Assembly (NCBI GenBank): GCA_016204695.1
Contig: JACQKD010000001.1
Coordinates: 4,976 to 68,975, forward strand
Length of the DNA stretch: 64,000 nt
Origin: Candidatus Kaiserbacteria bacterium
GTDB taxonomy: Bacteria; Patescibacteriota; Minisyncoccia; Phycocordibacterales; UBA918
Reading direction: 5' to 3'
Shown here: positions 17,998 to 62,278 of the stretch, piece by piece
Layout: every line of letters starts with the position of its first letter
Numbering within the stretch: position 1 is the first letter of the stretch
Translations under genes and position numbers: made by a program
Notes under the pieces: model-generated
The model's input: only the letters and a program-made list of their open reading frames with translations
Database searches by the model: none
Told to the model about the DNA's origin: nothing

Positions 17998-18074
17998 GCC
18001 GCCTTAGCTCAGTTGGTAGAGCAACGCACTTGTAATGCGTAGGTTTCCCCGGTTCGAGTCCGGGAGGCGGCTCC
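17998..18074 (+). tRNA. tRNA-Thr (anticodon TGT), CCA encoded.
   Basis: GCCGCCT acceptor pairs with AGGCGGC. D-arm GCTCAGTTGGTAGAGC. Anticodon stem ACGCA/TGCGT with loop CTTGTAA. T-arm CCCGGTTCGAGTCCGGG. Extended -10 TGTGATACAT lies about 8 nt upstream of the 5' end. Confidence 0.85.
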
Positions 18075-28264: not shown

Positions 28265-28437
28265 ACCTGAAATGGGGTGGTTGACTGTTTTCCGAAGAGA
28301 CATCGAACATTGACAAAGAGCAAAATGAGGTATAGCGTTCGGCGCAAAGTTCCTCTCTGTCCGGTGGGGGCAGAGCTTGTTGTTTGATTTGTCATGAATT
28401 GGCCGCGTAAAGGCGTGGCCGTGGAAAGAGGAAAGCC

Positions 28438-39513: not shown

Positions 39514-39680
39514 GGTGGGGACATTATAAGTCCTTTAAAGTAAAACGAGAATTGCTTTATACGCCGCTCTTGTTTTTGGTATAGAAACGTGTTTTAGTGT
39601 GCCTGGATTTAGATGGGCACCCACACCCCCCAAAAGCGAAGTAGAGAGTATGCAACTTGTGTGCTGGGAGGAGAGAGACC

Positions 39681-40262
39681 ATGACAGATGAGGAATATGA
39701 TCTAGGCTATGCCATGTTAGAGGGACATTGGCGGGTGCGGTTGATCTGTGGCAGTATGCCGCAGATTCACGTTGCGCTTCAAAGTATAGTCGTTCCGATG
39801 CTCACAGAACACTGTATTGCTTTCCTCCCGCGGCTGGTAGAGGGGGAAAGTGAAGATCCGCTTGGCGACTTGGCACGACAGATGTACGAGTACTTGCGTG
39901 CCGGGCGGACGATTCATTTGCCGAACAGAGATCAGATCGTTGATTTCTCTCCCGCTTTTTGCGGAGCTGTGGAGCGTGAAGCATTTATCGAGAATGCCTG
40001 CCAAGACGGGAAGTTTCTCAGCAGGGCGTTTGGGGAGCTGGCCCGCTGTATTCCAGAAACCTACACCATGATTCTTGCGCTTCGTGCGGGCTTCATGTGG
40101 AGAAACTACACGCCTATGTGGATGTATTTTCTTCATGATTTCTTGAAAACCGAGATCGATGCGCGATTAATTATTGGATTGGAGTACAGAGAGGCACTCG
40201 AGATGATGTTTTATTTTTCGGACTTTGATGTAGTCAAGCGAATAGGGGGGTACATACTGTAA
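39681..40262 (+). CDS. Hypothetical protein (about 194 aa) with lower GC (about 52%). Shine-Dalgarno-led.
   Basis: gggaggagagagacc ATG. Codon usage is richer in A/T third positions than neighbouring genes. No family recognised. Confidence 0.4.
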   Translation: MTDEEYDLGYAMLEGHWRVRLICGSMPQIHVALQSIVVPMLTEHCIAFLPRLVEGESEDPLGDLARQMYEYLRAGRTIHLPNRDQIVDFSPAFCGAVEREAFIENACQDGKFLSRAFGELARCIPETYTMILALRAGFMWRNYTPMWMYFLHDFLKTEIDARLIIGLEYREALEMMFYFSDFDVVKRIGGYIL

Positions 40263-41006: not shown

Positions 41007-41387
41007 ATGGTCGTCCGAATGAGACATAACCGCTCGCAGGTCCGTCAGGACCGGAGCCATCAAGCGCTCAAAGAGCGGACGCTTTCGGTGTGTTCGCATT
41101 GCAAGGCGCTTCATCTGCCGCACCACATGTGCTTGTCGTGCGGGTGGTACAACGGCCGCCAAGTGATGGACCTCGAAGCCGAGAAGGCAAAGCGTGACCG
41201 GCGGCTCAAAGAGAAGCGCGAGCGTATCGGCGTAGAGACGGGAGCAGAGCATCAGCCCGCTCCCGTGCCGGCTGTCGAAACCAAAGACGAAAAGCAACCG
41301 AAAGAAAAAGCTCGGAAGGCGCGCGGAGCGGCCGCCAAGCGCCTCAAGGACGAGTCGCTTTCGCAATCCGAAATTGGCTCAAACTGA
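41007..41387 (+). CDS. rpmF: 50S ribosomal protein L32 with a long Lys/Glu-rich C-terminal extension.
   Basis: VRMRHNRSQVRQDRSHQAL...CSHCKALHLPHHMCLSCGWYNGRQV (L32 zinc-ribbon core), then a ~65-aa charged tail. Confidence 0.8.
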   Translation: MVVRMRHNRSQVRQDRSHQALKERTLSVCSHCKALHLPHHMCLSCGWYNGRQVMDLEAEKAKRDRRLKEKRERIGVETGAEHQPAPVPAVETKDEKQPKEKARKARGAAAKRLKDESLSQSEIGSN

Positions 41388-41471
41388 CCCATCGACTTTC
41401 CACACTTCGCTCCGCATCCGGCGGAGCGTTTTTCCGTCCTCTGTGTTAGGATAGACGCAGGAATCACGAGT

Positions 41472-42380
41472 ATGGCAAATCGGCACCTTTCGAGAAGCAT
41501 TGTTCTGCAGTCGCTTTTCGAGTGGGATTTAAATAATATAGAAAAAAGCGATATCAAAAGCGTGCTCGAACGCAATATTGAAGAGTTCGCACCGAACAAG
41601 TCCGACCTACCGTTCATGGAGCGCCTTATCGACGGCGTGCTCGGCAAACAGAAAGAATTAAATCTTATCATTGAAAAGGCAGCGCCCGAGTGGCCGATCG
41701 ACCGCATCTCGCCGGTCGATCGCAACATTTTGCGTCTCGGTCTTTATGAGCTGTTGTTTGCCGACCGGAGCGAGGTCCCGGCCAAGGTCGCAATCAACGA
41801 AGCGATCGAGCTTGCCAAACAATTCGGCGGAGACAACTCCGGCAGATTCGTCAACGGCGTGCTCGGCGCAGTGTATAAAGAGATAGGCGAGCCCGGCAAG
41901 GATGAAAGCAGTAAGCGAAAGCGCAAGGATGTGCCGTATGAAGAGATGCCGGTCGAGCATCTTGCGGGTGCCGTGGTTTATGCATACGACGAGCAGGGCG
42001 AAATGTATTTGGCGCTCGTCCATGATATCTTCGGGCACTGGACACTCTCGAAAGGTAAAATTGAAGATGGCGAATCGATCGAGGATGGGGCGAAGCGCGA
42101 AATAAAAGAAGAGATAGGGCTCGATATGGAGATTGAGGCGAAGCTCGGCGAGAACGAGTATATTGCGTCCGATCCGGAAGTCGGAAAGAAACGCAAGCAT
42201 GTCACGTACTTTCTAGCGGAGTCGCCCTTTAAGGACGTGACGCTTGAAAAAAAAGGCGGACTCGACGACGCGAAGTGGTTCAGGGCTGCGGAAATTCTCG
42301 ATCTCAACTTCTACGAAGACATTCTGCCGATCGTGACCAAGGCCGTGACAATGCTTGTCGGCAAGAAACGTTCGAGTTAG
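41472..42380 (+). CDS. nusB: Fusion protein with an N-terminal transcription antitermination factor NusB domain and a C-terminal NUDIX hydrolase domain.
   Basis: NusB region [52 protein letters not shown] matches E. coli NusB ([30 protein letters not shown]). After a KRKRK linker comes the Nudix box [30 protein letters not shown] (GX5EX7REUXEEXGU). It is a single uninterrupted ORF. Confidence 0.8.
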   Translation: [302 protein letters not shown]

Positions 42381-42390
42381 ACTCCGTGCC

Positions 42391-43098
42391 ATGTCCGCAA
42401 ACGACAGAGATAAGCTTGATACATTGCAACAGGTGCTCGGCGTCACATTTGCCGACGTTACCTATTTGCTTTCTGCGGTTACGCATCGCTCGTTTCTGAA
42501 TGAAAACCGCGAGGCGACTCAGTCGCATAACGAGCGGCTTGAGTTTTTGGGAGACGCGGTACTTGAACTTATCGTCACCGATTTTCTTTTTGCGAAATAT
42601 CCGGACAAGCAGGAGGGCGAGCTCACTGCGATCCGAGCCGCACTTGTCAATACCAACACGCTTTCGTCACTTTCAACATCGCTCGGCGTTAATGAGTATT
42701 TGCTTCTCTCGAAAGGGGAAGCGAAGGATGTTGGCCGCGCGCGGCAATATATACTTGCCAATACCTTCGAAGCTATCGTCGGCGCGATGTATCTCGACCA
42801 AGGATACGAGCTCGCGCGCGACTTCGTCGCGCGCGAGCTCTTCCCGCGAACCGACGAGATTGTCGAAAAGCGTCTTTGGCAAGACCCGAAGAGCCGCTTT
42901 CAGGAGCGCGCGCAGGAAGTCACCGGCATCACGCCGTCGTATCAGACGCTCAAAGAGCAGGGTCCCGACCACGACCGCACATTTACCGTCGGCGTATTTC
43001 TCGGCAAGGATTGCATCGCGCAGGGCGAAGGTCGCGCCAAACAGGAAGCAGAACAAAAAGCTGCGGAAAATGGGTTGATAGAAAAAGGATGGACGTAG
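42391..43098 (+). CDS. rnc: Ribonuclease III.
   Basis: HRSF..NERLEFLGDAVLEL (RNase III signature ERLEFLGDA), a second catalytic region NTFEAIVGAMYLD, and a C-terminal dsRBD. Overlaps the end of the upstream ORF by about 10 nt. Confidence 0.9.
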   Translation: MSANDRDKLDTLQQVLGVTFADVTYLLSAVTHRSFLNENREATQSHNERLEFLGDAVLELIVTDFLFAKYPDKQEGELTAIRAALVNTNTLSSLSTSLGVNEYLLLSKGEAKDVGRARQYILANTFEAIVGAMYLDQGYELARDFVARELFPRTDEIVEKRLWQDPKSRFQERAQEVTGITPSYQTLKEQGPDHDRTFTVGVFLGKDCIAQGEGRAKQEAEQKAAENGLIEKGWT

Positions 43099-45567: not shown

Positions 45568-45744
45568 CATGACAAACTGCAAAAAATGCGGCAAGGAAAC
45601 CAAGGGATTCAAGTGCGATGTCGATACGTGCGGCATGGAAGCGGAACAGCATGATGCTAATCATGCATGCGGAGGCGAGCACTGCGTGCCGAAGTGTTCT
45701 GCGTGCAATGAAGCGGAAACAAAGTGCACCTGCTCCGCAGAATA
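45568..45744 (+). CDS. Candidate Cys-rich micro-protein (58 aa, 10 Cys, zinc-ribbon/metal-binding-like). Not in the supplied ORF track because it is shorter than 60 aa.
   Basis: MTNCKKCGKETKGFKCDVDTCGMEAEQHDANHACGGEHCVPKCSACNEAETKCTCSAE, with spacing CxxC...CxxxxC...CxxxHC...CxxC...CxC. Lies between the two copies of the smc 3' end. Confidence 0.3.
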
Positions 45745-45795
45745 GGTCGCGGCATCTCATCGCCGTGTCAATGTATCTGAAATACGACCGCGGGA

Positions 45796-45852
45796 GCGGT
45801 CGCATTTCTTTGTCCCTCTCCGTCAAACTCGAAGAAGTTGTTGCGGTGGCGA
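45796..45852 (+). repeat. Direct duplicate of the smc 3' end, located about 300 bp downstream of the real smc stop.
   Basis: 45447-45504 (ggcatttccaaactcctctccgtcaaactcgaagaagccgtcgccgtggcgaag tga) versus 45796-45852 (cgcatttctttgtccctctccgtcaaactcgaagaagttgttgcggtggcgaaa cag). The second copy lacks the stop codon. Confidence 0.8.
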
Positions 45853-45866
45853 AACAGGGCTCAAGT

Positions 45867-46424
45867 TCAATTGGTGGCACTCCGTTCTCCAGCTATCTCA
45901 ACAATCTTCTTGATATCCTGAATAAGTTTCATTTGTTCCGCAGTAATACCTTCAATGATGGAATTAAATTCGCTACCAGCAAGATAAACTGTTACCTCAG
46001 CTTCAAAGACTTTTAATTCTTTTGTTCCGTCAAACATGTGGTGTACGGCCTCTCTCCTGATGCCGTTGAATTTGTTAATATTCTTTATTAAGATTCGGTC
46101 GCATCTCAATCGAGCAAATATACCAACAAGTTGCCCCAATGTTTCTTCATCTTTCAAGATCAGTTTTTCATCTTCAAAAATATCTTCAACTCTAAGAAGC
46201 TTCAAGATCCTTCGTCGAGCAACATATCCATCAATCACAAATTTCATCAAATGCTCGATGAGTTGCGCATATACAAAGATAGTCTCTATCATAAAACCTG
46301 CTTGTATCAGGTTGTCCAATCTTTCGCGTGCCATGCTAGAACCCTTAACCAAAAGGGTTTGATGGGCAGCAATGCCAGAGATTTCATTATCAATCTGGAG
46401 ACCGATATGCTTTGATGTAGACAT
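45867..46424 (-). CDS. Hypothetical protein in an AT-rich islet (about 35-40% GC). Possible HEPN-like domain (R-x4-H motif).
   Basis: Strong compositional contrast with the flanks. IRREAVHHMFDG near the C-terminus fits the HEPN Rx4-6H signature. No other family recognised. Confidence 0.35.
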   Translation of the reverse strand: MSTSKHIGLQIDNEISGIAAHQTLLVKGSSMARERLDNLIQAGFMIETIFVYAQLIEHLMKFVIDGYVARRRILKLLRVEDIFEDEKLILKDEETLGQLVGIFARLRCDRILIKNINKFNGIRREAVHHMFDGTKELKVFEAEVTVYLAGSEFNSIIEGITAEQMKLIQDIKKIVEIAGERSATN

Positions 46425-46482: not shown

Positions 46483-48441
46483 TTACACCAACACAAAATC
46501 GAGTTGGCGGTCGTGGAGGTTGGCGGAGGCGAGACGGATGCGGATGGGGTCGCCGAGCTGGTATTTTTTGCCGCTTCGGTCGCCTTTGACCTGATAGTTT
46601 TTCGGGTCGTGCGTGAACGTGTCGCCTTTTATACTGATGAGCTTGACCATGCCTTCGGCCTTACTTTCTTTTTCTTCCACATACATGCCGTACTCGGAAA
46701 CGCCGGTGATGACGCCGTCGAATTCTCGGCCGACTTTGTCAGCCATGTACTCGACTTGTTTGAACTTGATGGATTCGCGCTCGGCGCTCACGGCCTTCAT
46801 CTCTTGTTCGGAAGACTGGATTGCGAGATGCTCGTAATGCGCCCGCTCGTCGCTTGCGATCGGCTGGCCGTCGAGATGCATGCGCAGGAGGCGATGTACC
46901 ATGAGGTCGGGATAGCGGCGGATGGGCGAAGTGAAGTGCGTATAAAACTTGAATGCGAGGCCGAAGTGCCCGATGTTTTTGGTCGTATAGACGGCCTTTG
47001 CCATCGAGCGGATGGTCGCGGTCTTGATGAGATTTTCCTCGGGCTTACCCTCGACTTCTTTGAGCAACTTGTTGATGTCGGTCGCTTCAACGATGCCGCC
47101 CTCCGAACGGAACTCATAGCCGAGCGCATGAAGGAAGATGGCGAGGTCCTCGATTTTCTCCGGTTTCGGCGCGTCGTGGACGCGGTAGACGAAGGCCGCG
47201 TCGCGGTTGCCGTTTTTGCGGAGATTGTAGATATGCTCGGCGACCTTCCTGTTCGCAAGCAACATGAAGTCTTCAATCATGAGCATGGTCTCGATGCGCT
47301 CTTTGACATATACGGCAATCGGCTTTTTGTTCTCGTCGAGCTCGAATTTGACTTCGGGCTGTTCGAAGGCGATGGCGCCGTCGATGTATCGGATTTTTCG
47401 CAGGATGCGTGAGACTTCCATGAGCGTCTTGAGCTCTGCGGCGAGCGGCCCGTTTCCGGTCTCGAATACTTCTTGTGCTTCCTGATAGGTGAAGCGCTTG
47501 TCGGAGTGGATGACGGTCTGTCCGTACCATTCGCTCACGACTGCACCTTGCGGGGTCATTTCAAACACGGCGGAGAAGGCGAGTCGGTCTTCATCGGGAC
47601 GAAGGGAGCAGAGGTCGTTTGAGAGCACTTCGGGAAGCATGGGAATGACGCGGTCGACGAGGTAAATGGATGTGCCGCGCTCCTGCGCCTGTGCGTCGAT
47701 GGGGTCGCCCTCGCGGACATAGTAGGAGACGTCGGCGATATGAATGCCGATTTCGTAGTTGCCGTTCGGCAATGCGCGAAACGAGAGTGCGTCGTCAAAG
47801 TCTTTGGCATCGGCGGGGTCGATGGTGCAGGTCGGCACACCGCGGAAGTCTTTTCGCTTGGGGTCGGCGAGCGCCTCGGCAAAAATCTTCGCCTGATTCT
47901 CGTGAAGCGCTTTCGCCGCTTGGTCGACTTCGGGAGGAAAGCCGGTCGCGAATCCGCCACTGCGGATGATGGCGCGCATTTCGGTCTCGTGCTCGCCCGC
48001 CTTGCCGAGCACTTCGATGATGTCGGCGGCGGGAGAGGCGGCGGGGTCGGTCCATCCTGCGTCGTCGAGTGCGGCCGCGACTTTCATTCCGAGATGTTCC
48101 GGTCCGGCGTTTGTGAGCAGGAACTGCCAGTGGAGGTGGCGGTTGTCCGGGCGGAGGCGATAGGTGACGCCCCGCATCTCAACTTCGCCGATGTATTCGC
48201 TCCGCGCCCGCTCGACGACGCGCACGACGCGGCCCGTTTGCCTTTCGCCCTTGTCTGTCTTCGTGAGACCCGGATCAAGCGTGATCTCGACTACGTCGCC
48301 GTCGAGCGCAAGCCCCACCGCTTCGGGAGGAATCATGACGTCCTCTTCGCGGTCGGGGATCTTCACAAAACCCGTGCCTTTGCTTCCGCGTATCGCGATC
48401 ACCCCTCTGTGCGCGTCCGGCGCGCCGATATTTTCATCCAT
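46483..48441 (-). CDS. rnr: Ribonuclease R (RNB-family 3'-5' exoribonuclease). The start may be 48489.
   Basis: N-terminal cold-shock-like OB folds. RNB motifs (CTIDPADAKDFDDALS, ...IGIHIADVSYYV..., TSIYLVDRVIPMLPE). C-terminal S1 domain. Confidence 0.9.
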   Translation of the reverse strand: MDENIGAPDAHRGVIAIRGSKGTGFVKIPDREEDVMIPPEAVGLALDGDVVEITLDPGLTKTDKGERQTGRVVRVVERARSEYIGEVEMRGVTYRLRPDNRHLHWQFLLTNAGPEHLGMKVAAALDDAGWTDPAASPAADIIEVLGKAGEHETEMRAIIRSGGFATGFPPEVDQAAKALHENQAKIFAEALADPKRKDFRGVPTCTIDPADAKDFDDALSFRALPNGNYEIGIHIADVSYYVREGDPIDAQAQERGTSIYLVDRVIPMLPEVLSNDLCSLRPDEDRLAFSAVFEMTPQGAVVSEWYGQTVIHSDKRFTYQEAQEVFETGNGPLAAELKTLMEVSRILRKIRYIDGAIAFEQPEVKFELDENKKPIAVYVKERIETMLMIEDFMLLANRKVAEHIYNLRKNGNRDAAFVYRVHDAPKPEKIEDLAIFLHALGYEFRSEGGIVEATDINKLLKEVEGKPEENLIKTATIRSMAKAVYTTKNIGHFGLAFKFYTHFTSPIRRYPDLMVHRLLRMHLDGQPIASDERAHYEHLAIQSSEQEMKAVSAERESIKFKQVEYMADKVGREFDGVITGVSEYGMYVEEKESKAEGMVKLISIKGDTFTHDPKNYQVKGDRSGKKYQLGDPIRIRLASANLHDRQLDFVLV

Positions 48442-48520
48442 AGCGTTAAATATGCTCCGAGTATAAATGAAAACGGGATTATTGACCATGGCGTTATTTT
48501 CTGGTACTGTCGAAGCCATT

Positions 48521-48982
48521 ATGTTGAAGATGCGATTACAGCGAGTCGGCCGCAAGCATAGCCCCGCCTACCGGGTGCTTATCGTCGATTCCCGTCAGGG
48601 CCCGAAGAGCGGCAAGTATATTGACCAAGTCGGCTCGTATGAACCGAAAGAGGGTCGGATCACGATCGACGGTGAGAAGGCGAAGGAGTGGATTGCCAAG
48701 GGTGTGCAGGTTTCCGGCACCGTCCATAACATGCTCATAGACCGGAAGATTATCGAAGGAAAGAAGATCAACGTACTTCCGAGAAAGTCGCCGATCAAGA
48801 AAGAGGATGGGGGTGCGCCGGTAGCGGAAGCTCCCGCCGTGCAAGCGCCGGACGCAACGTCCGCCGAAGCGCCTGAAACTTCTCCCGGAGAAGTTTCCGT
48901 TGAAGAAACTCCATCCGAATCCGCCAGCCGGCGGACTGCCGAAGAAACACCCGTAGAGCCGGTTGGTTCCGAGCCGTCATAA
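48521..48982 (+). CDS. rpsP: 30S ribosomal protein S16 with a C-terminal Pro/Ala/Glu-rich extension.
   Basis: MLKMRLQRVGRKHSPAYRVLIVDSRQGPKSGKYIDQVGSYEP is the S16 signature. Confidence 0.9.
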   Translation: MLKMRLQRVGRKHSPAYRVLIVDSRQGPKSGKYIDQVGSYEPKEGRITIDGEKAKEWIAKGVQVSGTVHNMLIDRKIIEGKKINVLPRKSPIKKEDGGAPVAEAPAVQAPDATSAEAPETSPGEVSVEETPSESASRRTAEETPVEPVGSEPS

Positions 48983-49108
48983 CGGCAATGTTCGCGCGTT
49001 TGTATTTGTGCGCTTTGGCATGTTGACGCACATGTCACCCTTTCGTATCATTAGTCTCGAACGAACGTTGCAATGTGCCGCTTAACAGAGTAGCTAGCAT
49101 AGAGATGT

Positions 49109-49453
49109 ATGGAACTTGATCGTCAATTTCTGGAATATGTGGTAAAGGCGCTTGTGGATCATCCCGATGACGTGAGGATTAACCGGACCGTAGATGAGAT
49201 GGGAGTACTGCTCACCATGGACGTGCATCCCGAAGATATGGGGAAGATTATCGGACGCTCGGGCAACACCGCAAAGGCGATCCGCACCCTCCTGCGCGTA
49301 GTCGGCATGAAGAACGATGCGCGGGTCAACCTCAAAATCAACGAGCCGGAAGGCGGCATGGGGGGCGGCCGCAACGGTGGCATGGGGAACGGAAACGGCT
49401 CCTCTTCCGCTCCGAAAACTCTCGACGAAGCCATCGACGATTTGAAGATGTAA
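49109..49453 (+). CDS. khpA: KH-domain RNA-binding protein (YlqC/KhpA, UPF0109 family).
   Basis: LVDHPDDVRINRTVDEMGVLLTMDVHPEDMGKIIGRSGNTAKAIRTLLRVVG is the KH GxxG core (GRSG). Its position after rpsP is canonical. Confidence 0.75.
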   Translation: MELDRQFLEYVVKALVDHPDDVRINRTVDEMGVLLTMDVHPEDMGKIIGRSGNTAKAIRTLLRVVGMKNDARVNLKINEPEGGMGGGRNGGMGNGNGSSSAPKTLDEAIDDLKM

Positions 49454-49454
49454 T

Positions 49455-49493
49455 TTTTTAAAAAACAAAAACCGCCGAGCCGCAAAGCGGCTT
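49455..49493 (+). terminator. Intrinsic terminator after the KH-protein gene.
   Basis: aaaaaccgccgagccgc aaa gcggcttggtggttttt tgtttg. Confidence 0.65.
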
Positions 49494-49540
49494 GGTGGTT
49501 TTTGTTTGACTTTGTCACGTTCCTCTCCAATAATTCCACT

Positions 49541-49969
49541 ATGACAAAAGGAATCGACTATACGGGGATTGCCGTCGTGTACATCTGTCACGACGGGAAG
49601 GGAAACATCCTCATGCACAAGCGGACGGAACGGTGCCGCGACGAGCATGGGTGTTGGGATTGCGGCGGAGGCGGTGTAAAGCTCGGCGAAAAAATCGAAG
49701 ACGCGTTGGTGCGGGAAGTGAAAGAAGAATATTTGGTGGAACCGCTTGAGTATGCATTGCTCGGGCATCGGGAGCTGTTTCGTGAACATGCGGGCCAGCC
49801 CACGCACTGGATCGCATTTGACTTCAAGGTACTCGTCGATCCGGAACGTGTGGGTATCGGCGAGCCGGACAAGGCGAGCGATATCGGCTGGTTTCCCTTC
49901 CGCAATTTACCCGATCCCTTGCACTCGGCCATACCGGATACGTTTGCCGATTATGATCATCATTTCTGA
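49541..49969 (+). CDS. NUDIX hydrolase (paralog 1).
   Basis: Nudix box GGGGVKLGEKIEDALVREVKEEYLVE. AATAAT -10 lies 6 nt before the ATG. Confidence 0.8.
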   Translation: MTKGIDYTGIAVVYICHDGKGNILMHKRTERCRDEHGCWDCGGGGVKLGEKIEDALVREVKEEYLVEPLEYALLGHRELFREHAGQPTHWIAFDFKVLVDPERVGIGEPDKASDIGWFPFRNLPDPLHSAIPDTFADYDHHF

Positions 49970-49985
49970 CAGCGTTTCATCTTGT

Positions 49986-50420
49986 ATGAATCATCTTGAG
50001 AAAGTGAAAGAGCTCGAATTGCCGTACGACCAGTTTGTGCTCGTCGGCGGCTCCATTCTCGACATTCACGGCATTCGAAAGAGTGATGATATGGACGTTG
50101 TGGTCAGCTCACAAGCATTTCAGACACTGAAAGGTCGGGGTTGGCCAGTTGACCCAGTTTTTAAAGAGAAATGGGGGCGGGAGCGGCTCGTGCAGGATGT
50201 GTTCGAAATATACACTGATCTCTATTTTCAAAAAATAGACTACTACCTTCCGTTTGAGGTCTTAAAGGAAATGTCCAAGCAGATGAAGGGCGTATACATT
50301 CAGTCACTCGGTGCGTTACTCTTAATAAAGTTCGATATTGGGCGCGAAAAGGATATGATAGATATCAAATTGATCGAGGAGTATCTGTTGGGGCAACGAA
50401 GGGCGGGTATGCAGAATTGA
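49986..50420 (+). CDS. Nucleotidyltransferase-fold protein (minimal NTase, Lnu/ANT-like GS...DxD motif).
   Basis: FVLVGGSILDIHGIRKSDDMDVVV has G-S followed by D-x-D at the typical pol-beta-superfamily spacing. 144 aa. Confidence 0.45.
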   Translation: MNHLEKVKELELPYDQFVLVGGSILDIHGIRKSDDMDVVVSSQAFQTLKGRGWPVDPVFKEKWGRERLVQDVFEIYTDLYFQKIDYYLPFEVLKEMSKQMKGVYIQSLGALLLIKFDIGREKDMIDIKLIEEYLLGQRRAGMQN

Positions 50421-50440
50421 GAATCCATGGTCGCATCGCT

Positions 50441-50866
50441 ATGAAAACAGGCATTGATTGTATCGGAGTGGTCGTCATCCACTACTGTAATGACGGGCGG
50501 GGGAATTTTGCTATGCTGAAACGCTCGTCAAAAAGCCGCGACGCCCACGGGTATTGGGATTTCGGAGGAGGTACTGTCGAGTTTGGCGAGCGGTTGGAGG
50601 ATGCGTTGGTGCGCGAAATGAAAGAAGAACTCGGAACGGAGCCCATTTCTTACGAGCAGATCGGCACCAAAGACATTATTGACGTCGATAACAAAAAGCA
50701 TTGGATAGGGGTATTTTATACGGCTCGCGTCAACAGGGAAAAAGTGTTCAATGCCGAGCCGGATTCTCACGATGAGTTGGGGTGGTTCACGCTTGATAAT
50801 CTGCCGAGTCCGACACGTCCCATTATGGCCGAACAACTGAAGGATTTTAGGAAATATTTAACATAA
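50441..50866 (+). CDS. NUDIX hydrolase (paralog 2).
   Basis: Nudix box GGGTVEFGERLEDALVREMKEELGTE. About 45% identical to paralog 1 (MTKGIDYTGIAVVYICHDGKGN versus MKTGIDCIGVVVIHYCNDGRGN). Confidence 0.8.
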   Translation: MKTGIDCIGVVVIHYCNDGRGNFAMLKRSSKSRDAHGYWDFGGGTVEFGERLEDALVREMKEELGTEPISYEQIGTKDIIDVDNKKHWIGVFYTARVNREKVFNAEPDSHDELGWFTLDNLPSPTRPIMAEQLKDFRKYLT

Positions 50867-50868
50867 TC

Positions 50869-51546
50869 ATGCATTTTCATGTGGTGACATTGTTTCCGGA
50901 GGTGTGCAAAGCGTATACGGACGCGTCTATTTTGGGCCGCGCGCAGAAGGGCAAGGGCAAAGCAAAAAAGATAACCGTCTCGTATTACAACCCCCGCGAC
51001 TATACGAAAGATAAACATCGCAAAGTGGACGACCGGCCGTACGGCGGAGGTCCGGGCATGGTGATGTATGCCGAGCCGATTTTGAAAGCGGTGGAAAAAG
51101 CTGTCGGCAAAAATAAGAGCACAAGGAAACCGAAGGTTCTCATCATGTCCCCGCGAGGAACATTGTTTGACCAACATTACGCGAAGAAACTTGCAAAATC
51201 ATACAAAGACGTCGTGCTCATCGCCGGGCATTACGAAGGTATCGACGCACGGGTGAAAAAGATACTGAAAGCGGAGGAGGTCTCGGTCGGTCCATATGTG
51301 CTCACCGGCGGCGAGCTTCCGGCGCTCTCAATCATTGACGCGGTCGCGCGCAATATTGCCGGCGTACTCGGCAAGGGTGAATCTCTCGAAGACACCCGAG
51401 CCGCAAGTGGCGAGATGTACACCCGCCCGGAAATGCTCACCTACAAAGGCAAAAAATACCGTATCCCAAAAATCCTCCTTACCGGCCACCACAAAAACAT
51501 CGAGCAATGGCGGCAAAAACGGTCGTTGTCCCAGGACGGCGGTTGA
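50869..51546 (+). CDS. trmD: tRNA (guanine37-N1)-methyltransferase.
   Basis: MHFHVVTLFPE, DDRPYGGGPGMVM, LIAGHYEGIDAR, VLTGGELPA are TrmD SPOUT motifs. Confidence 0.9.
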   Translation: MHFHVVTLFPEVCKAYTDASILGRAQKGKGKAKKITVSYYNPRDYTKDKHRKVDDRPYGGGPGMVMYAEPILKAVEKAVGKNKSTRKPKVLIMSPRGTLFDQHYAKKLAKSYKDVVLIAGHYEGIDARVKKILKAEEVSVGPYVLTGGELPALSIIDAVARNIAGVLGKGESLEDTRAASGEMYTRPEMLTYKGKKYRIPKILLTGHHKNIEQWRQKRSLSQDGG

Positions 51547-51786: not shown

Positions 51787-54700
51787 ATGGCTGTAAAAAC
51801 TTCGCATATCGTCAAGCAAGCGGCTCTGCCGAAAAAATATTTCAAACGGTATCGCGCTCCGCGGGTTGCGCTTCCCGACCTCATCGAGCCGCAGAGGGAA
51901 TCTTTCAAGTGGCTCGCTGAAGTGGGACTCAAAGAAGTCTTCAAAGAATTCTCTCCGATCAGCGACTACTCCGGCAAGAAATTCGAGCTCCATTTCAAGA
52001 AATACACAATCGGCACGCCGAAGTGCACGCCCGAATATGCGAAAGAAAATAAGCTTACTTACGATGCGCCCCTGCGCGCCACGGTGACGCTCACGAACAA
52101 GACGTTCGGCGGCGAGAAAGAGCAGGAGATCTTTCTTGCGGACATTCCGCTGATGACCGAGCATGGCACGTTCATCATCAACGGCGTCGAGCGCGTCATC
52201 GTGCCGCAACTCGCGCGCTCCTACGGCATCTTTTTTACCGCCGCGGAAACGAAAGGCAAGACCTACTTCGGCGCGAAGGTCATCCCTCTGCGCGGCGCGT
52301 GGATTGAGATTGAATCGGAGGCCGATGATGTGATCTATGTGAAAATCGATCGCAAGCGGAAGTTTCCGGTCACGTCGCTCTTGCGGGTGCTCGGTGCCGA
52401 AACCGACGCACAGATACTCGCCCTGTTTAAGGACGTCCCGCACGGGAAGGAATATCTGACCGAAACGCTTAAGAAAGATCCCGCGAAAACGACCGACGAC
52501 GCCTATGTCGAGATATACAAGCGCCTGCGTGACGGGGATCTTGCGACGGTGGAGAATGCGCGCGAGTTTGTGAAATCTATTTTCAGTGAGGAACGGTACG
52601 ATCTCTCCGAAATCGGCCGATACCATTTTAATCACCGTTTCGGTCTGCCGATCACGCCGAAGGATGCGTCGCATCGAGGCGTGTATCTCGATGACTTTGT
52701 CGTGATTCTCAAGCACGTCATCGAGCAGAATCAGGTGCCGGAAGCGCAGCCGGACGACATCGACCATCTCGGTTTTCGTCGCGTGCGGTACTTCGGCGAG
52801 ATGATCGTTCAGCGCGTGCGAGTCGGCATGACGCGCATGAAGCGCAACATCCAGGACCGCATGTCGACGATCGAGTCGGAGACATCTCTGCCGATTCAGC
52901 TTATCAACCCGCGACCGTTGCAGGCCGCGATCAAAGAGTTTTATACGACAAACCAGCTCGCGCAGTTTATGCAACAACAGAACGTGCTTGCGGAGCTTGA
53001 GGGACTGCGCACGCTCTCGGCGCTCGGTCCCGGAGGTCTCACGCGCGAGCGTGCGGGCTTCGACGTGCGCGATGTGCATCCGAGCCATTACGGCCGCCTC
53101 TGTCCGATCCATACGCCGGAAGGTCCGAATATCGGCCTTATTGTACGCCTCTCGATGTACGCGCGCGTCAACCGCTTCGGCATCATCGAGACGCCGTACG
53201 CAAAGGTGGGGAAGGGAGTGGTGACCGACGAGATTGTCTTTCTCAATGCGCATGAAGAAGAACAGCACACGATCGCACATGCGGCTACCGAGCTTGACGA
53301 GAACAGCAAGATTATTGCGAGCGTCGTAGAAGTTCGCCGCAACGGCGAGCCCTATGTCGCGCCGCGCGACGAAGTGGACTTCATGGATATCGCGACCAAT
53401 CAGGCGTTCTCGGTCGCGACCTCGATGATTCCGTTTCTCAACCATGACGACGCCAATCGCGCGCTCATGGGCTCGAACATGCAGAAGCAGGCGGTACCCT
53501 GCCTCGTGCAGGAGGTGCCGATCGTCGCAACCGGCATCGAGGAACTTGCGGCGCGCGATACCGGACGCATCATCGCCGCGCACGAGGCGGGGGAGGTCAC
53601 CGCAGTCGACGCCAAGCATATCGTGGTGAAAAACAAAGCGGGCAAAAGCGAGACCTACCCGCTCACCGTTTTCCAACGCACCAACGACTTTTCCGCTTTC
53701 TACCATCGCCCGACGGTGTCTCTCGGACAGACTGTAAAGCGGGGTGATATTCTCGCAGACACCTCTTCGACCGAGCATGGCCAAATCGCGCTCGGCCAGA
53801 ACGCGCTGGTCGCCTTCATGAGCTGGAGCGGCGCCAACTACGAGGACGCGATCATCATTTCCGAACGGCTCGTCAAAGACAGCAAATTCTCTTCCATTCA
53901 TATGGACGAGCTTGAAGTGTCGGTTCGCGATACCAAGCTCGGACCCGAAGTGACGACCTCCGACATTCCCAATGTCAGCGACCAAAAACTGCGCAATCTC
54001 GACGAAAACGGCATCATCCGCGTCGGCGCGGAGGTGCGTCCGGGTGACATTCTTGTCGGCAAAGTGACACCGAAAGGCGAGACTCAACTCACTCCCGAAG
54101 AGCGTCTCTTGCGCTCGATCTTCGGCGAGAAAGCGAAGGACGTAAAGGACACTTCCTTGCGGCTTGAAGCGGGCAAGCGCGGGCGTATCGTGGGCGTAAA
54201 GGTATTCAGCCGCGAGCAGGGCGATCAGCTTGAGAGCGGTGTCATCAAACGCATTCACATCACGATCGCACAGGTGCGCAATGTCTCCGTCGGCGACAAG
54301 CTTGCCGGCCGTCACGGCAACAAAGGCGTGATTTCGCGCATTCTTCCGGAGGAAGACATGCCGTATACGGAAGACGGCCGTCCGATTGATGTTATTCTCA
54401 CGCCGCTCGGCGTGCCGAGCCGTATGAACCTCGGACAAATTCTCGAGTTACATCTCGGTATGGCCGCGCATACACTCGGCTATCAGGCGATCGTGCCGCC
54501 GTTTGCGGGCGCAACCGAAGAAGAGATCAAGGAAGAACTCGTCAAGGCCGGCTTGCCGGAAGACGGCAAGCTCTGGCTTCGCGACGGTCGCACGGGCGAG
54601 ACATTTGCGCAGAAGATTGCCGTGGGCTACATGTATATTCTGAAACTCCACCACATGGTCGAAGACAAGATCCACATGCGTTCGATCGGTCCGTACTCGC

Positions 54701-55011
54701 TCATCACCCAACAGCCGCTCGGCGGCAAGGCGCAGATCGGCGGCCAGCGCTTCGGTGAAATGGAGGTGTGGGCTCTGCTCGGCTACGGCGCGGCCTACAC
54801 GCTTCGGGAGATGCTCACGATCAAATCCGACGATATCGTCGGCCGCTCGGCGGCGTTTGACGCCATCGTGCGCGGCGAACGCATCAGTCATCCGCATACC
54901 CCGGCGTCGTTTAACGTCATGATCAACCAGCTTCGCGGTCTTTCGCTTGATGTCGAACTTGCGCGGGATGACGACCGACAACGTGTCGAACCGAGTGATC
55001 GGGACAAGTAA
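51787..55011 (+). CDS. rpoB: DNA-directed RNA polymerase subunit beta.
   Basis: Full-length rpoB signatures, including the GDKLAGRHGNKGVISRI and ...NLGQILELHLG... motifs. 1074 aa. Confidence 0.97.
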   Translation: MAVKTSHIVKQAALPKKYFKRYRAPRVALPDLIEPQRESFKWLAEVGLKEVFKEFSPISDYSGKKFELHFKKYTIGTPKCTPEYAKENKLTYDAPLRATVTLTNKTFGGEKEQEIFLADIPLMTEHGTFIINGVERVIVPQLARSYGIFFTAAETKGKTYFGAKVIPLRGAWIEIESEADDVIYVKIDRKRKFPVTSLLRVLGAETDAQILALFKDVPHGKEYLTETLKKDPAKTTDDAYVEIYKRLRDGDLATVENAREFVKSIFSEERYDLSEIGRYHFNHRFGLPITPKDASHRGVYLDDFVVILKHVIEQNQVPEAQPDDIDHLGFRRVRYFGEMIVQRVRVGMTRMKRNIQDRMSTIESETSLPIQLINPRPLQAAIKEFYTTNQLAQFMQQQNVLAELEGLRTLSALGPGGLTRERAGFDVRDVHPSHYGRLCPIHTPEGPNIGLIVRLSMYARVNRFGIIETPYAKVGKGVVTDEIVFLNAHEEEQHTIAHAATELDENSKIIASVVEVRRNGEPYVAPRDEVDFMDIATNQAFSVATSMIPFLNHDDANRALMGSNMQKQAVPCLVQEVPIVATGIEELAARDTGRIIAAHEAGEVTAVDAKHIVVKNKAGKSETYPLTVFQRTNDFSAFYHRPTVSLGQTVKRGDILADTSSTEHGQIALGQNALVAFMSWSGANYEDAIIISERLVKDSKFSSIHMDELEVSVRDTKLGPEVTTSDIPNVSDQKLRNLDENGIIRVGAEVRPGDILVGKVTPKGETQLTPEERLLRSIFGEKAKDVKDTSLRLEAGKRGRIVGVKVFSREQGDQLESGVIKRIHITIAQVRNVSVGDKLAGRHGNKGVISRILPEEDMPYTEDGRPIDVILTPLGVPSRMNLGQILELHLGMAAHTLGYQAIVPPFAGATEEEIKEELVKAGLPEDGKLWLRDGRTGETFAQKIAVGYMYILKLHHMVEDKIHMRSIGPYSLITQQPLGGKAQIGGQRFGEMEVWALLGYGAAYTLREMLTIKSDDIVGRSAAFDAIVRGERISHPHTPASFNVMINQLRGLSLDVELARDDDRQRVEPSDRDK

Positions 55012-62190: not shown

Positions 62191-62278
62191 TGCGGGGAAC
62201 GGGATTCGAACCCGTAAATAATCCGCCAGGATTTGTAGTTTTCAAGACTACTGCGTATTCCAGTTCCGCCATCCCCGC
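62191..62278 (-). tRNA. tRNA-Ser (anticodon TGA), type II with a long variable arm. CCA not encoded.
   Basis: Minus-strand GCGGGGA...TCCCCGC acceptor. Anticodon stem GTAGT/ACTAC with loop CTTGAAA. Variable arm AATCCTGGCGGATT. T-arm ACGGGTTCGAATCCCGT. 88 nt. Confidence 0.8.

What the first reader, a model, noticed from the sequence alone, without database searches (positions are those of the whole stretch)
41472..42380. NusB fused in-frame to a NUDIX hydrolase
A complete NusB domain has near-identical residues to E. coli NusB in the BoxA-RNA-binding helix ([18 protein letters not shown]....FVNGVL). It is joined by a KRKRK-containing linker to a canonical Nudix box (GX5EX7REUXEEXGU = [30 protein letters not shown]). 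NusB acts on nascent rRNA/mRNA 5' regions. Nudix enzymes of the RppH/NudC type remove 5' pyrophosphate or NAD caps. A physical fusion would place a 5'-end-modifying activity on the antitermination complex. The gene keeps the conserved position upstream of rnc. Whether this architecture is already catalogued is not known to me.
Basis: partly seen in the sequence, partly recalled or inferred. Interest (0 to 1): 0.55.

Follow-up and report, generated by a model that had tools for sequence, protein, structure and literature searches.

The report
NusB fused to Ap4A-hydrolase-like Nudix domain
This candidate-phyla-radiation bacterium, like many of its relatives, makes its transcription factor NusB with an extra nucleotide-binding domain derived from an Ap4A-cleaving enzyme; the family keeps the nucleotide pocket but often loses the catalytic residues, so the add-on probably binds or senses a nucleotide more than it cleaves one.

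Summary
ORF 41472-42380 (+) encodes an uninterrupted 302-aa protein: a bona fide NusB (NCBIfam equivalog 130 bits, cut-off 88), a disordered ~25-aa charged linker, and a Nudix domain (Pfam 63.8 bits, cut-off 21) with a perfect Nudix box (aa 195-217). It is not a frameshift or assembly artefact. The same architecture occurs in hundreds of independent Parcubacteria/Paceibacteria assemblies, in a conserved rpmF | nusB-nudix - rnc - smc context.

The interpretation needs revising. The Nudix half resembles diadenosine-polyphosphate (ApnA) hydrolases (Aquifex Ap4A hydrolase, TM 0.88), not RppH or NudC. Across the fused family the catalytic glutamates are not conserved: the full set survives in 76%, 54%, 44% and 19-20% of four samples, in order of increasing divergence from the window protein. 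Standalone relatives keep them 21/21.

In contrast, the counterparts of the adenine-stacking and phosphate-binding residues of Ap4A hydrolase (K194, Y230, K242, Y281) are about 100% conserved.

The conserved job of the domain is therefore most likely nucleotide or 5'-end binding on the antitermination complex. Hydrolysis is optional and remains possible in this window's box-intact copy. The architecture is annotated only as "NusB", and I found no literature on it.

The parts
41007..41387 (+). Upstream gene rpmF (ribosomal protein L32 with a long K/E/A-rich C-terminal extension)
   Evidence: Pfam Ribosomal_L32p at aa 9-54, E 2e-14. Immediately upstream of the fusion gene in 70 of 77 related loci.
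41408..41433 (+). Terminator-like hairpin (8-bp stem with 7 G-C pairs, 5-nt loop, T-run) between rpmF and the fusion gene
   Evidence: CGCTCCGCATCCGGCGGAGCG followed by TTTTT. This is a consensus match only; function was not tested.
41472..42380 (+). Complete nusB-nudix fusion gene (302 aa plus stop)
   Evidence: A 100% identical protein, P0001, is on record from Candidatus Kaiserbacteria.
41472..41885 (+). NusB domain (aa 1-138), seven helices
   Evidence: Pfam 126 bits, TIGR01951 130 bits. AF2 helices H4-21 to H123-138 with pLDDT about 90-98. Foldseek to M. tuberculosis NusB 1eyv gives TM 0.82-0.85.
41886..41951 (+). Inter-domain linker (aa 139-160). It starts with the conserved junction motif GEPGK (aa 139-143, nt 41886-41900) and contains KRKRK (aa 148-152, nt 41913-41927).
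   Evidence: AF2 pLDDT is below 50 for aa 142-150. GEPGK is at least 97% conserved in 81 close-clade sequences and about 85-90% in a more divergent sample. The linker is 25-27 aa, with on average 6.8 K+R and 5.8 D+E.
41952..42374 (+). Nudix-fold domain (aa 161-301), ApnA-hydrolase-like
   Evidence: Pfam NUDIX 63.8 bits. AF2 pLDDT is mostly 91-98. Best folds are Aquifex Ap4A hydrolase 3i7u (TM 0.88), Rv2985/MutT1, Ndx1 and CT771. Best PDB sequence hits are CT771 and Ndx1.
42054..42122 (+). Canonical Nudix box [23 protein letters not shown] (aa 195-217), with catalytic positions E201, R209, E210, E213 and E214 intact in this copy
   Evidence: Regex hit. These positions are variable in the family: E210 ranks 111th of 131 Nudix-half positions in conservation. 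The full set is kept in 7/37, 32/81, 92/121 and 64/119 of four samples.
42051..42320 (+). Span holding the presumed nucleotide-binding residues: K194 (42051-42053), Y230 (42159-42161), K242 (42195-42197), Y281 (42312-42314), D283 (42318-42320)
   Evidence: They align with human Ap4A hydrolase K42, Y82, K89, F128 and E130 (NUDT2 sequence verified against 3u53). Roles from PMC4734340: K42 and Y82 engage the P1 phosphate site, K89 is the analogue of a sulphate-binding parasite lysine, Y82 and F128 stack adenine, E130 seems to bond adenine. Conservation is 121/121 and 119/119, with K242 as K or R and D283 as D or N.
42391..43098 (+). Downstream gene rnc (RNase III), first ATG 10 nt after the fusion gene's stop (the mechanical ORF call starts at TTG 42355)
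   Evidence: Immediately downstream in 74 of 77 related loci. Annotated Ribonuclease_3 + dsrm in related contigs. No terminator-like site lies between the two genes.

Best explanation
The gene encodes this lineage's NusB, the boxA-RNA and S10-binding subunit of the transcription antitermination complex. A C-terminal Nudix domain derived from a diadenosine-polyphosphate (ApnA) hydrolase is permanently tethered to it by a flexible, charged linker of about 25 residues.

Shown: both domains are genuine. The fusion is conserved across Parcubacteria/Paceibacteria-type CPR bacteria in a fixed rpmF | nusB-nudix - rnc - smc context. The Nudix fold is retained even in box-degenerate members. The residues that bind the adenine ring and phosphates in Ap4A hydrolases are essentially invariant, whereas the metal-binding catalytic residues are lost again and again.

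Inferred: what selection maintains is binding of an adenine-nucleotide polyphosphate by the Nudix module while NusB sits on the nascent rRNA leader. The ligand could be a small molecule such as ATP or ApnA, or an A-initiated triphosphate or Np4-capped RNA 5' end. The module would act as a ligand-sensing or 5'-end/partner-anchoring accessory of the antitermination complex. It would be comparable in logic to CF Im25, NrtR or SuhB rather than to a dedicated enzyme.

In members with an intact box, including this window's protein, the domain may also hydrolyse its ligand. That activity is an optional extra, not the reason the fusion persists.
For: Domain identity.

Reality and breadth of the fusion: 120/120 top clusters carry both domains; 80 species genomes with full-length matches; fusions down to 29% identity; 120/120 again with a divergent profile.

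Synteny: rnc downstream 74/77, rpmF upstream 70/77; same context for the divergent P0216.

ApnA-hydrolase affinity: CT771, Ndx1, aq_158 and NUDT2 among sequence hits; 3i7u TM 0.88; Rv2985, MutT1, Ndx1, CT771, C. elegans and human Ap4A hydrolases.

Binding residues:
- Y230 aligns with the ApnA signature Tyr.
- K194, K242, Y281 and D283 align with K42, K89, F128 and E130, whose roles are described in PMC4734340.
- These residues are conserved 121/121 and 119/119.

Catalytic residues:
- The canonical E-RE-EE set is present in 92/121, 64/119, 32/81 (35/80 after filtering) and 7/37 of samples of increasing divergence.
- It is present in 11/56 fused domains against 21/21 standalone relatives, Fisher p = 3e-11.
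- At least 22 independent state changes occur among 80 tips, against a shuffled mean of 26.
- E210 ranks 111th of 131 in conservation.

Fold retention: the box-degenerate P0263 still models as a confident Nudix fold (pLDDT 85.9) and best matches Aquifex Ap4A hydrolase.

Precedents:
- CF Im25 lacks two box glutamates and binds but does not hydrolyse Ap4A and ATP (PMC2425470).
- NrtR uses a Nudix-like effector domain (PMC2330246; 3gz8 ranks 13th).
- SuhB, an inositol mono-phosphatase, is required for stable NusB/E integration (PMC6614801).
- The same Nudix subfamily is fused to other nucleic-acid-binding modules: Sigma70_r4 + DnaA_C HTH with a non-canonical box, and a Rho_N tail.
Against: - There is no experimental datum for any member. 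The ligand is unknown, and binding is inferred only from alignment to Ap4A hydrolases.
- The invariant aromatic and lysine residues could be conserved for fold stability or for a protein-protein or RNA interface rather than for a nucleotide.
- The catalytic residues are not freely drifting. E214 is invariant in the close clade, and E201 and R209 are about 95% conserved in one sample. Also, 76% of the window's nearest relatives keep the whole set. Hydrolysis may therefore be under selection in many lineages, possibly including this one.
- Some Nudix enzymes tolerate non-canonical boxes, so 'degenerate' does not prove 'inactive'.
- The Fitch count rests on a quick NJ tree.
- I could not verify that the genome lacks a second, plain NusB. 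I also could not inspect an rRNA leader or boxA, because there is no rRNA in the window.
Confidence: 0.55

Rival explanations
1. One reading: the Nudix half is an active RNA 5'-end pyrophosphohydrolase or decapping enzyme (working like RppH or NudC). NusB delivers it to nascent transcripts so that it converts 5'-ppp, or removes NAD/Np4 caps, co-transcriptionally.
For: The window's protein has a perfect Nudix box, and most of its nearest relatives do too (92/121). NusB holds the 5' leader close to RNAP, and a flexible 25-aa basic linker could reach an RNA end. ApnA-type chemistry is relevant to RNA ends, because Np4 caps exist in bacteria and are removed by Nudix and other hydrolases (PMC7044304, PMC8833179, PMC13010140). 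The weak Nudt16-like Pfam hit (17.3 bits, below cut-off) is the only decapping-family signal.
Against: RppH and NudC models fail by a wide margin, and RppH and NudC are distant structural neighbours (ranks 39-46). The catalytic set is lost in 24-80% of family members while the fusion, synteny and binding residues persist, so this cannot be the family-wide function. The rRNA leader is removed by RNase III anyway, which weakens the rationale for 5'-end processing (inference).
Confidence: 0.15
2. An ordinary small-molecule ApnA (Ap4A/Ap6A) hydrolase happens to be fused to NusB for co-expression. The two halves work independently, with housekeeping clearance of dinucleoside polyphosphates and no mechanistic coupling to antitermination.
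For: The closest sequence and fold relatives are soluble ApnA hydrolases. The X-loop Tyr signature is present. The box is intact in this copy. The linker is disordered, and the low pTM in a second model (0.49) suggests the domains are loosely coupled.
Against: A housekeeping enzyme should keep its catalytic residues, as the standalone relatives do (21/21), but the fused ones do not (11/56). The fusion is stable over deep divergence (29% identity) with a conserved junction motif GEPGK, which argues for a functional link. No genuinely split version was found. The genome carries another, canonical standalone Nudix (50417-50866).
Confidence: 0.12
3. The domain is a purely architectural module with no nucleotide ligand. 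The Nudix fold serves as a protein-protein or protein-RNA docking surface that stabilises NusB/S10 on RNA polymerase. It would be a built-in substitute for SuhB-type accessory factors.
For: In E. coli, NusB/E needs an enzyme-fold protein, SuhB, for stable integration, and stable assembly boosts RNase III processing (PMC6614801; preprint 10.64898/2026.03.17.712431). The adjacent gene here is rnc. Catalytic residues are dispensable. The junction motif and many surface positions are conserved.
Against: The residues that stay invariant are the counterparts of the adenine sandwich and phosphate-binding lysines of Ap4A hydrolase, which is most simply explained by a retained nucleotide pocket. No partner is known. 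Absence of suhB in these genomes was not tested.
Confidence: 0.15
4. The fusion is an artefact: a missed stop, a frameshift or a chimeric assembly joining two neighbouring genes.
For: One related short contig (L083) has separate NusB and Nudix gene calls.
Against: The window ORF is continuous. An identical protein occurs on 3 contigs. More than 300 distinct full-length fusions come from NCBI, JGI, ENA and Logan assemblies. The L083 'split' is a single in-frame TAA at the conserved Tyr135 codon, and the frame continues through the linker.
Confidence: 0.01

Closest known systems
NusB (E. coli, T. maritima, Aquifex, M. tuberculosis; TIGR01951 / PF01029)
   Same: The N-terminal 138 aa pass the equivalog model (130 bits against 88). 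They are 37% identical to E. coli NusB, with the RNA-binding helix nearly identical, and share the all-helical fold (TM 0.82-0.85 to 1eyv).
   Different: Canonical NusB is a single-domain protein of about 130-150 aa. This one carries a conserved GEPGK junction, a 25-aa linker and a 140-aa Nudix domain. The gene sits between rpmF and rnc rather than in the contexts known from model bacteria (general knowledge).
Nudix ApnA hydrolases (Aquifex aq_158 3i7u, T. thermophilus Ndx1 1vc8, C. trachomatis CT771 4ilq/4mpo, M. tuberculosis Rv2985 / M. smegmatis MutT1, human NUDT2 3u53)
   Same: These are the best sequence and fold matches. The 'WT.PKG' motif is shared, as are the X-loop signature Tyr (Y230 = Tyr82/87), the second stacking aromatic (Y281 = Phe128), and the lysines (K194 = Lys42, K242 = Lys89).
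   Different: Those are free-standing enzymes, or fused to a histidine-phosphatase domain in MutT1, with strictly conserved catalytic boxes. Here the domain is fused to NusB, and across the family the box is frequently non-canonical.
CF Im25 / NUDT21 (pre-mRNA 3'-end processing factor)
   Same: It is a Nudix fold embedded in an RNA-synthesis and processing machine. It lacks catalytic glutamates and binds but does not hydrolyse Ap4A and ATP (PMC2425470). This is the same logic proposed here for box-degenerate members.
   Different: It is eukaryotic, with a different Nudix subfamily and ligand position, and is not fused to NusB. It also recognises RNA sequence (general knowledge, not tested here). 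The window's copy still has all catalytic residues.
NrtR (Nudix-related transcriptional regulators)
   Same: A Nudix-like domain serves as a ligand (ADP-ribose) effector module attached to a nucleic-acid-binding domain that controls transcription (PMC2330246). The NrtR Nudix domain 3gz8 is a close structural neighbour (rank 13).
   Different: In NrtR the Nudix domain is N-terminal to a winged-helix DNA-binding domain, and the protein acts as a repressor at promoters. Here the Nudix domain is C-terminal to an RNA-binding elongation factor. The ligand is presumably an adenine polyphosphate rather than ADP-ribose.
SuhB in the E. coli rRNA antitermination complex (rrnTAC)
   Same: An enzyme-fold protein acts as an accessory of NusB/E. 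It is required for stable NusB/E integration (PMC6614801), and stable assembly boosts RNase III processing. This parallels a NusB-tethered enzyme-derived domain encoded next to rnc.
   Different: SuhB has an unrelated fold (inositol monophosphatase), is a separate polypeptide, and binds NusA AR2. No evidence here shows that the Nudix domain contacts NusA, RNAP or RNA.
RsmB/Sun (16S rRNA m5C967 methyltransferase)
   Same: It is a precedent for a NusB-like RNA-binding domain fused N-terminally to an rRNA-directed enzyme. RsmB models hit aa 26-156 of the window protein (64 bits).
   Different: The hit covers only the NusB-like part and is far below the cut-off (319). The C-terminal domain there is a SAM methyltransferase, not Nudix. 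RsmB is not the antitermination factor.
RppH / NudC
   Same: They share the Nudix fold and box, and would act on 5' ends of RNA.
   Different: Their models fail (32 bits or less against 116 or more; 27 against 158). There is no NudC zinc site or SQPWPFPxS motif. They are distant structural neighbours.
Dcp2 (eukaryotic decapping enzyme)
   Same: The domain order is the same: an all-helical N-terminal regulatory domain, a flexible hinge, and a Nudix domain. Foldseek aligns about 240-265 columns across both halves.
   Different: The rmsd is 11-14 A and identity 13-16%, so the helical domains are not homologous (NusB against Dcp1-binding NRD). This is an architectural analogy only.

Membership tests
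NusB (transcription antitermination factor) | Matches the curated full-length NusB model above its cut-off | tested here: met
   TIGR01951 scores 130 bits against 88.35; Pfam PF01029 scores 126 bits against 23.1.
NusB (transcription antitermination factor) | All-alpha NusB fold | tested here: met
   AF2 gives seven helices with pLDDT about 90-98. Foldseek to 1eyv gives TM 0.82-0.85. PDB sequence hits to T. maritima, Aquifex and E. coli NusB reach E 6e-22 to 6e-17.
NusB (transcription antitermination factor) | Heterodimerises with S10 (NusE) and binds boxA RNA in rRNA leaders | not testable with these tools
   There is no rRNA operon in the window. A boxA-consensus scan gave only scattered 1-2-mismatch hits. 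Conservation of the RNA-binding helix is suggestive only.
Nudix superfamily (PF00293) | Nudix fold and the GX5EX7REUXEEXGU box | tested here: met
   PF00293 scores 63.8 bits against 21.1. There is an exact box match at aa 195-217. The fold has pLDDT above 90 and TM 0.88 to 3i7u. At family level the box is often non-canonical, and one member falls below the Pfam cut-off (P0216, 19.6 bits).
ApnA (Ap4A/Ap6A) hydrolase subfamily of Nudix | Signature Tyr in the X-loop downstream of the box that stacks adenine, plus a second stacking aromatic and phosphate-binding Lys residues | tested here: met
   Y230 = Tyr82(87), Y281 = Phe128, K194 = Lys42 and K242 = Lys89 by alignment. The feature definitions come from PMC5389931 and PMC4734340.
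ApnA (Ap4A/Ap6A) hydrolase subfamily of Nudix | Closest sequence and structure neighbours are characterised ApnA hydrolases | tested here: met
   The margins over other Nudix families are modest (E 1e-10 against 1e-7).
ApnA (Ap4A/Ap6A) hydrolase subfamily of Nudix | Catalytic hydrolysis of ApnA, with catalytic glutamates conserved | tested here: inconclusive
   Activity is not testable here. The residues are intact in the window protein, but across the fused family they are kept in only 19-76% of samples, against 21/21 in standalone relatives.
RppH (RNA pyrophosphohydrolase) | Matches curated RppH equivalog models | tested here: not met
   The best RppH model, NF001936, scores 32 bits against a cut-off of 118, and the others score lower. 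BdRppH 3ees ranks only 46th by fold.
NudC (NAD-cap decapping / NADH pyrophosphatase) | Curated model, SQPWPFPxS motif and zinc-binding cysteines | tested here: not met
   NF001299 scores 27.2 bits against 158. Direct reading shows no SQPWPF-like motif and no Cys in aa 139-302. NudC ranks 39th-40th by fold.
NrtR-type Nudix-related regulators | Nudix-like effector domain fused to a C-terminal winged-helix DNA-binding domain | tested here: not met
   The architecture here is NusB-N-terminal plus Nudix-C-terminal, with no HTH. There is only fold similarity to the NrtR Nudix domain.
RsmB (NusB-like domain + methyltransferase) | Full-length RsmB model including the SAM-methyltransferase domain | tested here: not met
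   The score is 64 bits against a cut-off of 319, covering only aa 26-156.

The most novel reading that the evidence does not exclude
In a major CPR class, the rRNA antitermination factor NusB carries a built-in nucleotide sensor. The sensor is an ex-ApnA-hydrolase pocket that binds ATP or ApnA alarmones, or the A-initiated 5'-ppp/Np4-capped end of the nascent pre-rRNA. Through it, assembly or stability of the antitermination complex, and with it RNase III processing, would be gated by the cell's nucleotide or stress state. This would be a compact substitute for SuhB-type accessory factors and possibly for alarmone control in these reduced genomes. Catalysis would then only tune ligand residence time, which would explain why it is repeatedly lost.
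Probability: 0.22. Interest if true: 0.8.

Novelty: new variant of a known kind. Interest (0 to 1): 0.57.

Why it matters
NusB is one of the most conserved bacterial transcription factors, and textbooks describe it as a small single-domain protein.

Here an entire, very large and uncultivated bacterial class has replaced it with a two-domain version. The added domain shows a clear enzyme-to-binding-module trajectory: the pocket is kept while catalysis is optional.

If the pocket binds ApnA, ATP or an RNA 5' end, this would be the first direct physical link between nucleotide or alarmone (or 5'-cap) status and the rRNA antitermination and processing machine. It would also be a natural system for asking how reduced genomes replace accessory factors such as SuhB.

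There is a practical consequence too. Current annotation calls these proteins just 'NusB', and in eroded members misses the Nudix half altogether, so the architecture is invisible to anyone browsing annotations.

Tried and rejected
- **Frameshift or assembly artefact:** rejected.
- **Genuine split nusB + nudix gene pair as Rosetta-stone evidence:** the only candidate (L083) is an in-frame TAA at the Tyr135 codon on a 2.4-kb contig. It is a nonsense mutation or sequencing error, not a two-gene arrangement.
- **RppH or NudC identity:** rejected by HMM scores, motifs and fold ranking.
- **AlphaFold-database fold search to see whether UniProt holds the architecture:** the library was not available.
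- **Literature on the fusion:** NusB+Nudix+fusion, NusB + candidate phyla radiation, and the Nudix clan review, which has zero mentions of NusB or antitermination. Nothing relevant was found. The library lacks most subscription journals, so absence is not proof.
- **CT771 structural paper by DOI:** not held. Residue roles were taken from PMC4734340 and PMC5389931 instead.
- **Cluster look-up for taxon names of divergent members:** this returned no organism names. Taxonomy therefore rests on record titles of 80 genome loci and a few NCBI names.
- **boxA consensus scan of the window:** 19 hits at up to 2 mismatches against 6.3 expected. They are scattered, A/T-rich and without an rRNA context, so this is inconclusive and I did not use it.
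- **Sigma-70 promoter upstream of the gene:** none found, and CPR promoters may not fit the consensus.
- **Domain docking:** I could not obtain PAE or coordinates, so whether the two domains dock on each other is unresolved. pTM is 0.71 for the window protein and 0.49 for P0263.
Full report
**1.

The window carries an uninterrupted ORF at 41472-42380 on the + strand (302 aa, ATG start, TAG stop).
- Pfam places a NusB domain at aa 7-136 (E 1.6e-36, 126 bits, cut-off 23) and a NUDIX domain at aa 165-282 (E 2.1e-17, 63.8 bits, cut-off 21).
- NCBI's full-length NusB equivalog model TIGR01951 is passed (130 bits against 88).
- The N-terminal half is 37% identical to E. coli NusB, with the VP.[12 protein letters not shown].FG...FVNGVL helix almost identical. 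It hits solved NusB structures down to E 6e-22.
- The strict Nudix box is [23 protein letters not shown] (aa 195-217, nt 42054-42122).

**2. It is not an artefact**

An identical protein is on record from a Candidatus Kaiserbacteria genome.
- The 120 best clusters (77-100% identity; NCBI, JGI, ENA and Logan assemblies) are all 297-327 aa and all carry PF00293+PF01029.
- A scan of one genome per species returned 80 full-length matches (61-78% identity). They come from Kaiser-, Adler-, Nomura-, Lloyd- and Taylorbacteria and other Parcubacteria/Paceibacteria-type MAGs.
- An exhaustive search with the Nudix half alone found full-length fusions down to about 31% Nudix identity, or 29% over the whole protein.
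- A profile of the most divergent members again returned 120 of 120 two-domain proteins. Where a source names them, they are 'NusB' from Candidatus Paceibacterota or Nomurabacteria.
- The single apparent split (L083, separate NusB and Nudix gene calls) is an in-frame TAA replacing the conserved Tyr135 codon, with the reading frame continuing through the linker.

**3. Context**

- In the 80 loci the order dnaE(-) rnhB rpmF | nusB-nudix rnc smc is conserved. rnc lies immediately downstream in 74 of 77 loci, and rpmF immediately upstream in 70 of 77.
- A member only 34% identical (P0216) sits in the same context.
- In the window, a terminator-like hairpin (41408-41428 plus a T-run) follows rpmF. 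The first ATG of rnc lies 10 nt after the fusion gene's stop, with no terminator between. The fusion gene and RNase III are therefore probably co-transcribed (inference).
- This adjacency is a property of this clade, not of bacteria in general (general knowledge).
- It is functionally coherent. [quoted passage not shown]

**4. What kind of Nudix domain it is**

- By sequence, the best solved relatives include CT771 (Ap4A hydrolase) and Ndx1 (Ap6A hydrolase) at the top, with MTH1 in the same score range and the Aquifex and human Ap4A hydrolases further down.
- The AlphaFold model is confident (pLDDT 92.1) and shows two folded domains joined by a disordered segment at aa 142-150.
- Its best structural matches are Aquifex Ap4A hydrolase (TM 0.88), Rv2985 and MutT1 diadenosine polyphosphatases, Ndx1 and CT771. 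The ADP-ribose-sensing Nudix domain of NrtR ranks 13th, and NudC and RppH rank 39th-46th. No solved structure spans both halves.
- RppH and NudC curated models fail by a wide margin, and the NudC motifs are absent.
- The Nudix clan review states that a Tyr in the X-loop downstream of the box marks ApnA hydrolases and contacts adenine.
- After verifying my NUDT2 sequence against 3u53, alignment shows Y230 = that Tyr (Tyr82, numbered 87 in 1XSC), Y281 = Phe128, K194 = Lys42, K242 = Lys89 and D283 = Glu130.
- PMC4734340 assigns those human residues to the P1-phosphate site, adenine stacking and bonding to the adenine amino group. It notes that human Lys89 itself does not engage the sulphate, unlike its parasite analogue.

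**5. The unexpected part: catalytic residues erode while the binding pocket is kept**

In the fused family the residues that define a Nudix enzyme are not what is conserved. The table shows how many sequences keep the full catalytic set E201/R209/E210/E213/E214.

| Sample | Full catalytic set kept |
|---|---|
| Window's nearest relatives (at least 77% identical) | 92 of 121 |
| Independent sample (38-65% identical) | 64 of 119 |
| Species-level close-clade genomes | 32 of 81 (35 of 80 after filtering) |
| Divergent 50%-cluster representatives | 7 of 37 |
| All fused representatives in the Nudix-half search | 11 of 56 |
| Standalone ~140-aa relatives from the same search | 21 of 21 |

- The fused-versus-standalone difference gives Fisher p = 3e-11.
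- E210, the Glu of 'RE', is replaced by K, V, A, I, G or R and ranks 111th of 131 Nudix-half positions in conservation. Only E214 is invariant in the close clade.
- On a tree built without the box columns, at least 22 state changes are needed among 80 tips. That is close to the shuffled expectation (mean 26, range 19-32), so loss is recurrent.
- In contrast, W190, T191, K194, Y230, Y281, D185 and W269 are kept in 121 of 121 and 119 of 119 sequences. K242 is K or R, and D283 is D or N.
- 29 Nudix-half positions and the junction motif GEPGK are at least 97% conserved in the close clade.
- A box-degenerate member (P0263, set E-R-A-K-E) still models as a confident Nudix fold and best matches Aquifex Ap4A hydrolase.
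- In the most eroded members, Pfam no longer calls the Nudix domain (P0216: 19.6 bits against 21.1).

**6. Reading**

Shown: this is the lineage's NusB with a permanently tethered, ApnA-hydrolase-derived Nudix domain. The domain is under strong selection, but the selection targets the counterpart of the nucleotide pocket, not the catalytic metal site.

Inferred: the conserved role is binding of an adenine-nucleotide polyphosphate, free or at an RNA 5' end, on the antitermination complex. Hydrolysis is an optional extra that may persist in box-intact members such as this one.

Precedents for each element exist:
- CF Im25, a Nudix protein of the pre-mRNA 3'-processing machine, lacks two box glutamates and binds but does not hydrolyse Ap4A and ATP.
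- NrtR regulators use a Nudix-like effector domain.
- SuhB, an inositol mono-phosphatase, is needed for stable NusB/E integration in E. coli.
- RsmB carries a NusB-like domain in front of an rRNA-modifying enzyme (partial hits).
- Np4 caps derived from ApnA exist on bacterial RNA, which keeps a 5'-end ligand plausible.
- The same Nudix subfamily also appears with other nucleic-acid-binding modules. These are Sigma70_r4 + DnaA_C HTH + Nudix with a non-canonical box, NusB-Nudix-Rho_N, and a cold-shock-like + NusB + Nudix form. That pattern is consistent with a portable effector module.

**7. Rivals**

- An independent housekeeping ApnA hydrolase is contradicted by the loss of catalytic residues specifically in fused copies. 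The window also holds a separate canonical Nudix gene (50417-50866).
- A ligand-free architectural role is not excluded.
- An artefact is excluded.

**8. Novelty and caveats**

The architecture is in public databases but is labelled only NusB. I found no paper that describes it, and the searchable library is incomplete. I therefore rate it a new variant of a known kind.

Caveats:
- There is no experimental evidence for any member.
- The ligand is unknown.
- The residue mapping rests on sequence alignment at about 20-30% identity.
- The catalytic residues are not fully unconstrained.
- The tree analysis is approximate.
- I could not examine whole genomes for a second nusB, suhB or an rRNA leader.

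Noticed in passing
window 50417-50866 (+): There is a second, standalone Nudix gene (149 aa) with a canonical box, GTVEFGERLEDALVREMKEELGT. It scores 66 bits for Pfam NUDIX and marginally passes Nudt16-like (27.1 against 27); no NCBIfam equivalog passes. It lies directly upstream of trmD (50869-51546) and downstream of S16 (48467-48982), inside what is usually the rpsP-rimM-trmD-rplS region.
   Followed up: partly
window 41007-41387 (+): The L32 (rpmF) ORF is 126 aa. The L32 domain covers only aa 9-54 and is followed by a K/E/A-rich C-terminal extension of about 70 aa. Related loci show variable lengths for this gene.
   Followed up: no
P0132 and P0140 (family members, not in window): Some family members add a third module, a C-terminal Rho_N-like tail (P0132 scores 28.8 bits against a cut-off of 24.9; P0140 scores 18.8 bits, below cut-off). 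This gives NusB-Nudix-Rho_N.
   Followed up: partly
P0222 and P0190 (family members, not in window): The same Nudix subfamily occurs as Sigma70_r4 + Bac_DnaA_C HTH + Nudix (P0222, 379 aa, box set E-R-K-E-E). It also occurs as a 577-aa protein with a long N-terminal extension (weak cold-shock-domain hit) + NusB + Nudix (P0190).
   Followed up: partly
L083 542-1459: An in-frame TAA replaces the conserved Tyr135 codon of the fusion gene on a 2.4-kb contig of assembly GCA_013565675.1, so gene callers report separate 'NusB' and 'Nudix' proteins. It could be a sequencing error, a pseudogene or a read-through or recoded stop. This was not resolved.
   Followed up: partly
window 41886-41900 (aa 139-143): The junction motif GEPGK, immediately after the last NusB helix, is at least 97% conserved in the close clade and about 85-90% conserved in a more divergent sample. 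It lies at the edge of the segment predicted to be disordered. It is absent from the solved NusB sequences aligned. Its role is unknown.
   Followed up: partly
window, 19 sites, e.g. 28310-28322 (-) TGCTCTTTGTCAA: boxA-consensus-like sequences (TGYTCTTTRAMAA, up to 2 mismatches) are about three times more frequent than in shuffles (19 against 6.3; 0 of 100 shuffles reach 19). They are scattered and A/T-rich, and the window has no rRNA operon. The 1-mismatch site at 28310 lies in an intergenic gap.
   Followed up: no
window 39657-40262 (+), 45618-46016 (+), 49094-49807 (-), 49746-50420 (+): These four ORFs of 132-237 aa have no Pfam match. The first sits between dnaE and rnhB, where related loci show variable spacing.
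   Followed up: no
window 46483-48555 (-), 51787-55011 (+), 55035-58676 (+): The neighbourhood is rich in RNA-metabolism genes: RNase R (RNB + CSD + S1), rpoB, and an rpoC-sized ORF. Two tRNAs lie at 17998-18072 (+) and 62191-62278 (-).
   Followed up: partly
P0183 (family member): One fusion protein is named '8-oxo-dGTP diphosphatase' by JGI/IMG, while its relatives are named NusB. This illustrates inconsistent annotation of the architecture.
   Followed up: no
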